Assembly (NCBI GenBank): GCA_001002415.1
Contig: LCMB01000002.1
Span: forward strand, 3,434 to 53,694
Source: Microgenomates group bacterium GW2011_GWF2_46_18
GTDB taxonomy: Bacteria; Patescibacteriota; Microgenomatia; UBA1400; UBA12108
Direction of reading: 5' to 3'
Length of the DNA: 50,261 bases
The notes beneath the pieces are model-generated. The model did no database searches. It saw only the letters and a program-made list of their open reading frames with translations, and had not been told where the DNA came from. This document shows positions 6,139 to 34,082 of this stretch, piece after piece. Every line of letters starts with the position of its first letter. Position 1 is the first letter of the stretch. The position numbers were made by a program, and so were the translations under genes.

Positions 6139-6153
6139 ACGGTGCACATGCGT

Positions 6154-6159
6154 ATTATA
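6154..6159 (-). promoter_or_regulatory. -10 box TATAAT for tRNA-His
   Basis: RC of attata. Lies 15 nt upstream of G-1. The same TATAATAC context is seen at 6305..6310 and 7825..7832. Confidence 0.5.
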
Positions 6160-6176
6160 ACTCAAAAATAGATATG

Positions 6177-6291
6177 AAAACTCGCTTTACCTGCCTATAG
6201 GCAGGTCTAACCAAATGAGGGCTCCCAGATTACTGCGTATCTGGAGCCATTTCTCAAGTGCCTATGGCACTTGATGTGTACTCCACCCACC
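6177..6291 (-). ncRNA. Candidate chimeric small RNA / pseudo-tRNA: tRNA-His 5' end + twin-hairpin element + tRNA-His D-arm + terminal hairpin
   Basis: Has its own TATAAT box (6305..6310). 15 nt are identical to the tRNA-His leader plus 5' acceptor (6284..6298 vs 6131..6145). 14 nt are identical to the D arm (6206..6219 vs 6114..6127). Hairpins at 6254..6274, 6220..6248 and 6189..6206, then a T-run. No GTG anticodon loop, no T arm and no 3' acceptor strand. Confidence 0.45.
6220..6274 (-). other. Twin-hairpin element, copy 1
   Basis: Gapless 41/55 identity to 33928..33982, with four compensatory base-pair substitutions in the two stems. Confidence 0.7.
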
Positions 6292-6304
6292 ACGGTGCTA
6301 GAGT

Positions 6305-6310
6305 ATTATA
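6305..6310 (-). promoter_or_regulatory. -10 box TATAAT for the tRNA-His-like chimeric RNA
   Basis: RC of attata. Lies 13 nt upstream of the GGTGGGTG start and immediately after the stop of the 6311..6457 ORF. Confidence 0.45.
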
Positions 6311-6457
6311 TCAGTCCCGGGGTTTTTTCTGCAGGATTTCGTTGAGCTGTTGCATAGTTCTCGCAATCAGAGCTAGGCGTTCTTGGGGAGTAAGGTTCTC
6401 CGTTTTTAACTCTTCTGGTGTTTGGGGAGCTTCGTTAGTTGGGGTGAGTGGGTTCAT
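6311..6457 (-). CDS. Small hypothetical protein (48 aa), translationally coupled to the SLT gene
   Basis: My own translation: MNPLTPTNEAPQTPEELKTENLTPQERLALIARTMQQLNEILQKKPRD. Its ATG overlaps the upstream stop as ATGA (6457..6454). It falls below the ORF-track size cutoff. Confidence 0.4.
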   Translation of the reverse strand: MNPLTPTNEAPQTPEELKTENLTPQERLALIARTMQQLNEILQKKPRD

Positions 6458-33841: not shown

Positions 33842-33916
33842 TGACCCCATTGGGATTCGAACCCAAGTTAACAGGATGAAAACCTGTCGTCCTAGACCGG
33901 GCTAGACGATGGGGCC
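33842..33916 (-). tRNA. tRNA-Glu (TTC)
   Basis: Acceptor GGCCCCA/TGGGGTC, D arm TCTAGCCCGGTCTAGGA, anticodon loop TTTTCAT, T loop TTCGAAT. Confidence 0.9.
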
Positions 33917-33927
33917 AAAATTATTTG

Positions 33928-33982
33928 GCATCCCAGATCACTACGTGTCTGGATGCACTTCTCATGTTTCTACGAAACTTGA
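33928..33982 (-). other. Twin-hairpin element, copy 2 (fills the tRNA-Lys/tRNA-Glu spacer)
   Basis: Gapless 41/55 identity to 6220..6274. Hairpins at 33928..33956 and 33962..33982. Compensatory changes keep both stems intact. Confidence 0.7.
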
Positions 33983-33988
33983 AGTGCG

Positions 33989-34063
33989 TGGGCCCACTGG
34001 GATTCGGACCCAGGACACCCTGCTTAAAAGGCAGGTGCTCTAACCAGACTGAGCTATAGGCCC
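33989..34063 (-). tRNA. tRNA-Lys (TTT)
   Basis: Acceptor GGGCCTA/TGGGCCC, anticodon loop CTTTTAA, T loop TCCGAAT. Confidence 0.9.
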
Positions 34064-34073
34064 CACGGAGAAT

Positions 34074-34082
34074 ATTTTATCA
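34074..34082 (-). promoter_or_regulatory. Extended -10 TGATAAAAT for the tRNA-Lys/Glu unit
   Basis: RC of attttatca. Lies 10 nt upstream of the tRNA-Lys 5' end. The same 9-mer precedes rplS. Confidence 0.5.

What the first reader, a model, noticed from the sequence alone, without database searches (positions are those of the whole stretch)
33917..33988. Copy 2 of the twin-hairpin element makes up essentially the whole tRNA-Lys / tRNA-Glu spacer, so tRNA processing would excise it
The 72-nt spacer between the tRNA-Lys 3' end (33989) and the tRNA-Glu 5' end (33916) is almost entirely the two hairpins (33928..33982). In this copy an additional outer helix CACTTC/GAAGTG (33981..33986 with 33957..33962) is also possible. 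The other inter-tRNA spacers in this window are 6 nt (Arg-Pro) and 34 nt (Pro-Gly) and are unstructured. A single promoter (TGATAAAAT at 34074..34082) appears to drive Lys-element-Glu. RNase P cleavage at tRNA-Glu and 3' processing of tRNA-Lys would therefore release the element as a defined small RNA. That would be a tRNA-operon-embedded sRNA biogenesis route.
Basis: partly seen in the sequence, partly recalled or inferred. Interest (0 to 1): 0.62.

Follow-up and report, generated by a model that had tools for sequence, protein, structure and literature searches.

The report
Mobile double-hairpin insert between two tRNAs
The structured stretch between the tRNA-Lys and tRNA-Glu genes is one copy of a small two-hairpin insertion element scattered around the tRNA genes of ultra-small (CPR) bacteria; it sits in this spacer only in this lineage, so it is more likely a tolerated passenger trimmed off by tRNA processing than a purpose-built small RNA.

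Summary
The 72-nt Lys-Glu spacer is almost entirely a two-hairpin element (window 33927..33987, minus strand).

It is not a feature of this operon. It is one copy of a roughly 61-nt dispersed family. This genome has 6-7 full copies plus 2 stumps, and 22 of 23 genomes of the same family have 2-19 copies each. Exact-pattern hits across 185,579 species are almost all in Patescibacteria.

Both hairpins are strongly supported by covariation.

Of 136 distinct copies, 82 lie within 200 nt of a tRNA gene, and 81 of those are on the same strand. Insertion points recur:
- at the tRNA 5' end
- at the tRNA 3' end
- in the D-arm of broken tRNA copies
- in the T-stem of broken tRNA copies

Sixteen copies lie in sense orientation inside long ORFs.

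None of 16 relatives with the same Lys-Glu pair has the element in the spacer. Their spacers read like this one with 61 nt removed.

RNase P RNA is present. RNase Z is absent from the whole order.

Best reading: a lineage-specific insertion of an apparently undescribed double-hairpin element, removed passively by tRNA end processing. A dedicated sRNA route is not supported.

The parts
34074..34082 (-). Extended -10-like box TGATAAAAT, 10 nt upstream of tRNA-Lys +1. Presumed single promoter of the Lys-element-Glu unit.
   Evidence: Read directly. Similar TATAAT/TAAAAT boxes precede the other tRNA units. Not called by the consensus scan because it has no -35.
33989..34063 (-). tRNA-Lys(ttt). The discriminator A is at 33989 and is followed by C (33988). 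No CCA is encoded.
33927..33987 (-). 61-nt double-hairpin insertion element (copy 2 in this window).
   Evidence: CM R1 scores 83.4 bits, E = 3.9e-18. Empty orthologous spacers show that it is an insertion. The conserved trailing C comes from the flank logo.
33962..33982 (-). Hairpin 1 in the family-consensus register: UCA.GUUUC GUA GAAAC.UGA, with a conserved A-A mismatch.
   Evidence: 7 of 9 pairs show changes on both sides across 111 distinct copies.
33957..33961 (-). Linker GAAGU. It is GAAAU in 105 of 111 copies. The G here, together with U5, allows the copy-specific outer helix.
33928..33956 (-). Hairpin 2: 12 bp with a bulged G and a bulged A, GCAUCCAGACAC GUA GUG A UCUGG G AUGC.
   Evidence: 8 of 12 pairs show changes on both sides. 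Alignments A2 and A3.
33917..33926 (-). Residue of the ancestral AT-rich spacer, AAAUAAUUUU.
   Evidence: It matches the empty spacers of relatives, which read GGGCCCA-CAAAT..., CATAT... or CAATTT....
33842..33916 (-). tRNA-Glu(ttc).
6220..6279 (-). Copy 1 of the same family. It sits in the D-arm of a broken, promoter-bearing 5' copy of tRNA-His, 83 nt upstream of the intact tRNA-His.

Best explanation
The Lys-Glu spacer was originally about 11 nt long (C-AAAUAAUUUU). One 61-nt copy of a dispersed two-hairpin insertion element landed in it, directly after the tRNA-Lys 3' end (discriminator A plus C).

The family:
- The consensus is 5'-GCACAUCAAG [variable stem] YUGAGAAAUG YN UCCAGA [variable stem-loop] UCUGGGA NR CC.
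- It is multi-copy in Microgenomates-type CPR bacteria.
- It sits almost only where an insertion does no harm: exactly at tRNA 5' or 3' ends, in inter-tRNA spacers, inside the D-arm or T-stem of broken duplicate tRNA copies, and in frame in linker regions of proteins.

At this locus the element is a passenger:
- It is co-transcribed from the tRNA-Lys promoter.
- It is removed as a by-product when RNase P makes the tRNA-Glu 5' end and an unidentified nuclease (not RNase Z) makes the tRNA-Lys 3' end.

Shown: the insertion, the family, its distribution, the covarying hairpins, the co-orientation with tRNAs, and the filled and empty sites.

Inferred: co-transcription, release by processing, and that spread happens at the gene (DNA) level by a process that recognises tRNA-gene sequence or structure. 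The enzyme is unknown.
For: 1. Family membership. The CM finds 6-7 copies in this 674-kb genome. It finds 2-19 copies in 22 of 23 genomes of the same family, but only 1 copy in 4 of 37 genomes of other families of the order. An exact 21-base pattern gives 89 stretches among 185,579 species. All but one of the 80 stretches listed carry CPR or unspecific labels.

2. Insertion at this site. All 16 relatives with the Lys(ttt)-Glu(ttc) pair lack the element in the spacer. Short empty spacers read GGGCCCA-CAAAT.../CATAT..., which is this spacer minus 61 nt.

3. A second filled/empty pair at tRNA-Ser(gct). This genome reads CTCC-GC-AGTTTATAAA. A relative reads CTCC-[GCAC...GATGCC]-GCAGTTTATAAA.

4. 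Turnover:
- Four relatives carry the element upstream of tRNA-Lys instead.
- The Tyr-Thr loci carry 1-3 copies at varying positions.
- Tandem arrays exist.
- Truncated stumps follow tRNA-Ser(gga) and tRNA-Ser(cga) here.
- In the GH18 gene the insert is intact in this genome and one relative, decayed in a second relative and absent in 9.

5. Structure. 90% of cells are paired, 15 of 21 pairs change on both sides, and 0 of 500 shuffles reach the observed score.

6. Context. Of 136 distinct copies, 82 are within 200 nt of a tRNA, 81 of them on the same strand. The co-orientation holds even for the 22 copies on the locally G-rich strand.

7. The inserts in ORFs lie outside the Pfam domains.

8. 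No Rfam family matches, even at E<=10.
Against: 1. The unpaired blocks and the perfect complementarity of the variable stems are kept even in copies that look orthologous and old. The tRNA-His-linked copy, seen in 7 genomes of several genera, has a different but fully paired hairpin 1 in each. A dead relic should decay. This implies continued selection, re-invasion or palindrome correction.

2. Copies in long ORFs are 16 sense to 1 antisense. On my reading of the consensus, stop codons do not explain this bias.

3. At the truly variable pairs, G-U (14) outnumbers A-C (2). This hints that the sense strand is the one that folds, as RNA or as single-stranded DNA.

4. No mobilising enzyme was identified. 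Y1 transposase presence does not track the element. Small GIY-YIG genes lie near only 5 of 136 copies.

5. Expression and processing were not observed.
Confidence: 0.7

Rival explanations
1. The element is a functional small RNA or RNA module, and tRNA operons are its expression and maturation platform. RNase P and a 3' nuclease release it, and it then acts in trans, for example as a protein decoy or sponge.
For: - The co-orientation with tRNAs is strict, 81:1.
- Many copies start exactly at the discriminator base or end exactly at tRNA +1/+2.
- The single-stranded blocks are invariant and the covariation is strong.
- G-U outnumbers A-C at the variable pairs.
- Known precedent, from my own knowledge: the E. 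coli 3'ETS of glyW-cysT-leuZ acts as an sRNA sponge.
Against: - It is not conserved at the orthologous Lys-Glu spacer, 0 of 16.
- Copy number and positions vary freely between close relatives.
- 26 copies sit in broken tRNA fragments and 16 sit in sense orientation inside protein-coding frames. One ORF copy is decaying.
- No complementary target for the conserved 9-10-mers exists in the genome beyond the copies themselves and chance hits.
Confidence: 0.12
2. A cis-acting processing or stability signal. The hairpins would recruit an endonuclease or stop 3' exonucleases, helping to mature CCA-less tRNAs in a lineage without RNase Z.
For: - RNase Z is absent.
- Only about 3 of 43 tRNA genes encode CCA.
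- At least 8 copies abut tRNA 3' ends.
- RNase J and RNase P RNA are present.
Against: - RNase Z is absent from the whole order, including 33 of 37 genomes that lack the element. There is therefore no correlation.
- Most tRNAs in this genome have no copy. At most 7 of its 43 tRNAs (5 tRNA units) have a full copy or stump beside them.
- The same tRNA has the element in one relative and not in another.
- A stable hairpin right at the 3' end would hinder exonucleolytic trimming rather than help it.
Confidence: 0.08
3. A REP/IS200-IS605-type element. The two subterminal hairpins would be the left and right ends recognised by a Y1 (HUH) transposase acting on single-stranded DNA.
For: - There are two hairpins, no terminal inverted repeats and no target duplication beyond 1-2 ambiguous bases.
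- There is a weak TCT preference just 5' of the element.
- A Y1 transposase gene lies in the window.
Against: - The window's Y1 gene is bracketed by a different 25-nt hairpin.
- Five genomes with 6-12 copies have no Y1_Tnp match. Most genomes of other families have Y1_Tnp but no element.
- The 5' target preference is weak, IC 0.3-0.6 bits.
- Orientation follows the tRNA, not the compositional strand.
Confidence: 0.07
4. A small self-cleaving ribozyme that cuts at its own 5' edge and so makes the tRNA 3' end.
For: The element abuts the discriminator exactly. The junction nucleotides are conserved. No RNase Z is encoded.
Against: - No match to any Rfam ribozyme model at E<=10.
- It is two independent hairpins with a 5-nt linker, a triloop in hairpin 1 and a 3-4-nt loop in hairpin 2. 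No pseudoknot partner is evident.
- 16 sense copies inside ORFs would destroy their mRNAs.
- Most copies are 11-138 nt from a tRNA end.
Confidence: 0.03

Closest known systems
Rickettsia palindromic elements (RPE; Ogata et al. 2000, from my own knowledge)
   Same: Both are short, dispersed, hairpin-forming repeats of a reduced-genome bacterium. Both are found in intergenic DNA, next to or in RNA genes, and in frame inside protein genes, where they add a peptide outside the conserved domains.
   Different: RPEs are about 100-150 bp and form single long palindromes. They are Rickettsia-specific and are not tied to tRNA gene boundaries. This element is 61 nt, has two separate hairpins with invariant linkers, and 60% of its copies touch tRNA genes, co-oriented with them.
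Mitochondrial double-hairpin elements / repetitive hairpin-forming elements (DHE, RHE; PMC2800124 and the references in it)
   Same: Both have two adjacent hairpins of tens of nucleotides. Both are dispersed in intergenic regions, including those beside tRNA genes, and in rRNA and protein genes. Both are regarded as mobile, with no known enzyme or function.
   Different: Those are organellar and GC-rich, and there is no sequence relation. They show no reported precision at tRNA ends and no embedding in broken tRNA copies.
REP/BIME/REPIN elements with RAYT transposases
   Same: Both are structured short repeats, occur singly or in tandem arrays, and show compensatory changes.
   Different: This element has no GTAG head. 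It is not associated with the RAYT-like gene of this window or flanking it, and its presence does not track Y1 transposases.
tRNA-operon spacer-derived RNAs such as the E. coli 3'ETS-leuZ sponge (from my own knowledge)
   Same: An RNA piece is released from a tRNA precursor by the processing enzymes.
   Different: Those are fixed, locus-specific sequences with defined targets. This one is a movable repeat that is absent from the orthologous spacer of relatives.
Free-standing GIY-YIG cassettes in tRNA genes
   Same: Both show the same signature of a broken tRNA copy next to an intact one, with palindromes at the junction. Such a cassette sits in the tRNA-Trp gene of this genome and in the Lys-Glu spacer of one relative.
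   Different: The 61-nt element encodes nothing. Only 5 of 136 copies have a GIY-YIG gene within about 0.5 kb.

Membership tests
Any Rfam 15 family, including hammerhead, twister, pistol, hatchet, HDV-like and hairpin ribozymes | Covariance-model match | tested here: not met
   Only the 7 tRNAs pass the gathering score in the window. There are no matches at all at E<=10 in 33900..34000.
REP/REPIN-RAYT | Single 20-40-nt imperfect palindrome with a conserved GTAG-type head | tested here: not met
   The element has two different hairpins, starts with GCACAUCAAG and has no GTAG head.
REP/REPIN-RAYT | Copies flank a cognate Y1 transposase gene and co-occur with it | tested here: not met
   The window's Y1 gene is flanked by an unrelated 25-nt hairpin. 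PF01797 is absent from 5 element-rich genomes and present in most element-free families.
MITE | Terminal inverted repeats | tested here: not met
   The ends GCACAUC... and ...GGGAKRCC are not inverted copies of each other.
MITE | Target-site duplication of fixed length | tested here: not met
   Filled versus empty sites show only 1-2 ambiguous bases, C or GC.
IS200/IS605-derived palindrome-associated element | Subterminal hairpins at both ends, no TIR and no TSD | tested here: met
IS200/IS605-derived palindrome-associated element | Insertion 3' of a conserved tetra- or pentanucleotide | tested here: inconclusive
   Only a weak TCT preference, IC 0.27-0.60 bits.
IS200/IS605-derived palindrome-associated element | A full-length parent IS carrying the same ends | tested here: inconclusive
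   No association with Y1_Tnp at genome level. The flanks of the Y1 genes of relatives were not inspected.
RPE-like in-frame palindromic insertion | In-frame insertion in protein genes that is absent from orthologues | tested here: met
   There is a 20-aa insert before the GH18 domain. It is intact in this genome and one relative, decayed in a second relative and absent in 9. There are 16 sense copies in ORFs of at least 250 aa.
RPE-like in-frame palindromic insertion | Sequence homology to Rickettsia RPE families | not tested
   No RPE sequences were at hand. The size and architecture differ.
tRNA-spacer-derived regulatory sRNA (3'ETS-leuZ type) | Conserved at the orthologous locus | tested here: not met
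   0 of 16 orthologous Lys-Glu spacers carry it.
tRNA-spacer-derived regulatory sRNA (3'ETS-leuZ type) | Accumulates as a discrete RNA with a base-pairing target | not testable with these tools
No complementary target was found for the conserved blocks.

The most novel reading that the evidence does not exclude
The 61-nt double hairpin is the non-autonomous form of a so far undescribed kind of tRNA-gene-homing element of CPR bacteria.

It is inserted at four fixed points of tRNA genes:
- between -1 and +1
- between nt 12 and 13 in the D-arm
- between nt 61 and 62 in the T-stem
- just after the discriminator base

A structure-specific or tRNA-box-specific nuclease or recombination process would do this, possibly the minimal GIY-YIG nucleases seen in the same loci.

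The element would survive because RNase P and 3' end processing, or a spare tRNA copy, make the insertion harmless. The hairpins would be kept perfect because they are the substrate of that machinery.
Probability: 0.25. Interest if true: 0.75.

Novelty: new variant of a known kind. Interest (0 to 1): 0.5.

Why it matters
If the family is what it seems, tRNA genes in the smallest bacterial genomes are landing pads for minimal structured DNA parasites. The host's own tRNA-trimming enzymes hide these parasites.

This bears on several things:
- How CPR tRNA loci should be annotated. Broken tRNA copies, odd anticodons such as Ser(act), and long structured spacers all appear there.
- How such genomes tolerate repeats.
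- Which enzyme recognises the hairpins.

The work also shows that a textbook step is missing. No RNase Z is found in a whole order whose tRNA genes mostly lack CCA.

For the specific claim, the practical message is negative. This spacer should not be annotated as an sRNA gene without expression data.

Tried and rejected
1. RNase P might be missing, so that the element would replace it. Rejected: an RNase P RNA gene is at C1:18097-18366.

2. Link to the RAYT/Y1 transposase of the window. Rejected: its hairpins are different and there is no co-occurrence.

3. The element compensates for loss of RNase Z. Rejected: RNase Z is absent in 60 of 61 genomes of the order, with or without the element.

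4. A known RNA family or ribozyme. No Rfam match even at E<=10.

5. The outer helix as a family feature. Only 3 of 111 copies can form it.

6. A trans target by complementarity to the conserved blocks. Only the copies themselves and three chance 10-mers were found.

7. Phage carriage. 0 hits in viral contigs.

8. A mature-tRNA (CCA) signature at junctions, which would point to an RNA-templated origin. None of the 3'-abutting junctions has CCA.

9. Strand of folding from G-U versus A-C. This is ambiguous. The overall excess of A-C comes from one conserved A mismatch, one stem-base pair and an alignment artefact. At the variable pairs, G-U 14 versus A-C 2 favours the sense strand.

10. Separating transcription from replication orientation by GC skew. 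The genome is extremely skewed. The 22 copies on the G-rich strand are still co-oriented with their tRNA.

12. Literature. Four full-text searches found no description of this family.

Full report
**1. The observation**

tRNA-Lys(ttt) and tRNA-Glu(ttc) lie head to tail on the minus strand, 71-72 nt apart. The spacer folds into two hairpins at -21.3 kcal/mol, z = -3.6. These hairpins persist when the whole precursor is folded.

An extended -10 box, TGATAAAAT, lies 10 nt before tRNA-Lys. The consensus scan calls no promoter or terminator on this strand inside the spacer.

The other spacers in the window are 5-6 nt and 33-34 nt. The description is therefore right, apart from a one-base slip in the coordinates of the outer helix.

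**2. It is one copy of a dispersed family**

No near-identical copy exists in the window. A short-word BLAST of the spacer against the 674-kb genome, followed by reading the hits, found related twin hairpins at four other places.

I built a covariance model from these five (A1, R1). In this genome it finds:
- the Lys-Glu spacer copy
- a copy 83 nt upstream of tRNA-His (window 6220..6279)
- two copies that end exactly on the first bases of tRNA-Thr(tgt) and tRNA-Tyr
- one copy inside a 435-codon frame
- one and a half copies inside a 707-codon frame

In relatives, 22 of 23 genomes of the same family carry 2-19 copies. Only 4 of 37 genomes from other families of the order carry a single copy.

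An exact 21-base pattern from the conserved part finds 89 stretches among one genome per 185,579 species. The titles name Woesebacteria, Pacebacteria, Microgenomates, Kaiserbacteria and the like. Some carry evidently wrong or unspecific labels. One record is titled TM6. The pattern finds nothing in viral contigs. Rfam has nothing, even at E<=10. Four literature searches found no description.

**3. Anatomy**

From 111 distinct copies (A3) the unit has these parts:
- a 5-nt head, GCAC(A/U)
- hairpin 1: UCA(A/G)G, a 4-5-bp hypervariable stem, a triloop, then (C/U)UGA, with a conserved A mismatch
- a linker, GAAAU, present in 105 of 111 copies
- hairpin 2: 12 bp. The base is 4 variable pairs, then a bulged G, then the invariant UCCAGA/UCUGG, then a bulged base, then 2-3 variable pairs and a 3-4-nt loop
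- a conserved trailing C, present in 84 of 99 copies

90% of cells are paired. 15 of 21 pairs show changes on both sides. No shuffle out of 500 reaches the observed covariation. Sliding the partners by one to three columns destroys the signal.

Only 3 of 111 copies have both.

**4. Where the copies sit**

Of 136 distinct copies, 82 have an ARAGORN tRNA within 200 nt. In 81 of these the tRNA is on the same strand. About 3% would be expected from the share of this genome lying near tRNA genes (my estimate from 43 tRNAs in 674 kb).

Four kinds of position recur:

(a) Starting at the discriminator base or one base after it. This occurs at tRNA-Ser (four isoacceptors), Lys, Arg and Leu(caa).

(b) Ending on tRNA positions +1/+2. 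This occurs at Thr and Tyr.

(c) Inside the D-arm (GCT^CAG) of a broken 5' copy of a tRNA. The broken copy carries its own copy of the promoter and lies just upstream of the intact gene. This occurs at His in 7 genomes, and at Lys, Gly, Ile and others.

(d) Inside the T-stem (after nt 61) of a broken 3' copy just downstream of the intact gene. It is followed by an exact duplicate of that tRNA's own last 13-14 nt plus CA, and preceded by a small palindrome made of T-arm sequence. This occurs at Leu, Gln, Ile and Tyr.

A further 16 copies lie in sense orientation inside ORFs of at least 250 codons, against 1 in antisense. In this genome the two ORF copies sit outside the Pfam domains. One is after the membrane anchor of a GH18 protein. 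The other is between the Wzy_C and TPR parts of an O-antigen-ligase-like protein.

**5. The Lys-Glu copy is a lineage-specific insertion**

The Lys(ttt)-Glu(ttc) pair is present in 16 relatives, with spacers of 4-340 nt. None holds the element.

The short spacers read GGGCCCA-CAAAT..., CATAT... or CAATTT... up to tRNA-Glu. The window reads GGGCCCA-C[61 nt]AAATAATTTT-GGCCCC. Removing the 61 nt restores an ordinary 11-nt spacer, with one ambiguous C at the junction.

Four relatives have the element upstream of tRNA-Lys instead, inside a broken tRNA-Lys 5' copy. Three have a degenerate second tRNA-Lys in the spacer. One has a small GIY-YIG gene there.

A second clean filled/empty pair is tRNA-Ser(gct): CTCC-GC-AGTTTATAAA here, against CTCC-[GCAC...GATGCC]-GC-AGTTTATAAA in a relative. 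Truncated stumps (GCACATCAAGT...) follow tRNA-Ser(gga) and tRNA-Ser(cga) in this genome.

In the GH18 gene the insert is intact in this genome and one relative, visibly decayed in a second relative and absent in 9.

These are the marks of an insertion element with turnover, not of a fixed gene.

**6. What the processing idea is worth**

An RNase P RNA gene is present (65.7 bits, E = 2e-20), so the cut at tRNA-Glu +1 is plausible.

RNase Z is not found here. The only weak hit is RNase J. It is missing from 23 of 24 genomes of the family and 60 of 61 of the order. Yet only about 3 of 43 tRNA genes encode CCA. The 3' cut must therefore be made by something else.

Because the lack of RNase Z is order-wide while the element is nearly confined to one family, the element is not a substitute for it.

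I could not look at RNA.

**7. Mechanism: what can and cannot be said**

Spread is not explained by the Y1 transposase of the window, which has different hairpins and no co-occurrence. There are no terminal inverted repeats. There is no target duplication beyond 1-2 ambiguous bases, and only a weak TCT preference 5' of the element.

Co-orientation with tRNAs is not a by-product of the extreme strand composition of these genomes. The 22 copies on the locally G-rich strand still point the same way as their tRNA.

Two readings fit the fixed insertion points:
- a nuclease or recombination process recognises conserved tRNA-gene boxes or extruded hairpins
- ectopic gene conversion uses the conserved D-arm and T-arm sequences as homology

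Insertions into single intact tRNA genes would be lethal. Only copies at the ends, in spacers or in spare fragments are therefore seen.

The palindromic scars and broken copies look like those around the GIY-YIG cassette in tRNA-Trp of this genome. However, a GIY-YIG gene lies near only 5 of 136 copies.

Three things speak against a purely dead relic:
- The invariant unpaired blocks are kept, and the stems stay perfectly paired while changing sequence in the apparently orthologous His-linked copies.
- ORF copies show a 16:1 sense bias.
- G-U exceeds A-C at the variable pairs, 14 to 2.

These observations leave room for a role of the sense strand as RNA or as single-stranded DNA. Template-switch correction of quasi-palindromes (known from E. 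coli; my own knowledge) could also keep the stems perfect without any RNA function.

**8. Comparison and verdict**

In behaviour the element resembles Rickettsia palindromic elements and the double-hairpin or repetitive hairpin-forming elements of mitochondria (PMC2800124). It differs from them in its strict tie to tRNA gene boundaries and fragments. It fails the tests for REP/RAYT and MITE, and those for IS200/IS605-derived elements are inconclusive.

I arrived at it before reading that note. I add the empty-site evidence, the position classes, the enzyme checks and the orientation control.

The family itself is an apparently undescribed variant of a known kind of element.

Noticed in passing
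whole genome and 60 relatives: No recognisable RNase Z (TIGR02651) in 60 of 61 genomes of the order, including closed genomes. Yet only about 3 of 43 tRNA genes here encode CCA, and about 17 are followed by CA. The tRNA 3' end-maturation route of this lineage is open. RNase J is present (C1, about 75-77 kb).
   Followed up: partly
window 6140..6330 (-): There is a tandem duplication of the tRNA-His promoter plus the first roughly 30 nt of the gene. The upstream broken copy holds twin-hairpin copy 1 in its D-arm and ends in a hairpin plus U-run (CCTGCCTATAGGCAGG...TTTT). The same layout occurs in 7 genomes. The D-loop of the broken copy tracks that of the intact gene in each genome, which suggests gene conversion.
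   Followed up: partly
genome C3:21830..21880; loci L017, L047 (tRNA-His upstream): A second small repeat, CCTGCCCGCAATGCTTCGCATAGCGATGCAGGCGGG-like, recurs after tRNA-Trp and inside the broken tRNA-His copies of relatives. It is a separate hairpin family of the tRNA loci.
   Followed up: no
loci L011, L015, L022, L028, L054, L072, L088, L102, L105: Directly after tRNA-Leu-CA there is a long perfect AT-rich palindrome (about 15-20-bp stems). Its sequence differs in every genome. It is followed by a palindrome built from an inverted plus a direct T-arm fragment, in which the T-loop UUC is changed to UGA. These look like fold-back repair scars or terminators.
   Followed up: no
locus L153 (G017) and L141, L144, L148: The Lys-Glu spacer of one relative holds an 87-aa GIY-YIG gene between hairpins. 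Three others hold a second tRNA-Lys-like copy whose anticodon arm is replaced by a CCCGC-loop-GCGGG hairpin. This resembles the palindrome in the tRNA-Trp GIY-YIG cassette of this genome (C3:21440..21760).
   Followed up: partly
genome C5:32029..32222 and locus L046: A tRNA-Ser with the unusual anticodon ACT sits 24 nt before tRNA-Ser(gct), here and in relatives. In one relative the twin-hairpin lies between them. The ACT copy may be a spare or degenerate duplicate.
   Followed up: no
contigs C2, C3, C5: GC skew is extreme and uniform, up to -0.3 to -0.38 over whole contigs. The sense strand is C-rich. A similar strand disparity is reported for another Microgenomates genome, according to the title of PMC7143001 (listed, not read).
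   Followed up: no
locus L072 (CP011212.1, record titled candidate division TM6): A good copy of the element (61.9 bits) lies in a Leu-Leu-element-Val-Phe-Gly tRNA cluster, the same layout as in Pacebacteria records. This means either transfer across phyla or a mislabelled record.
   Followed up: no
genome C22:1249..1270 and C22:2063..2085: Truncated 5' stumps of the element (GCACATCAAGT...) follow tRNA-Ser(gga) and tRNA-Ser(cga). The first runs into a masked N stretch.
   Followed up: partly
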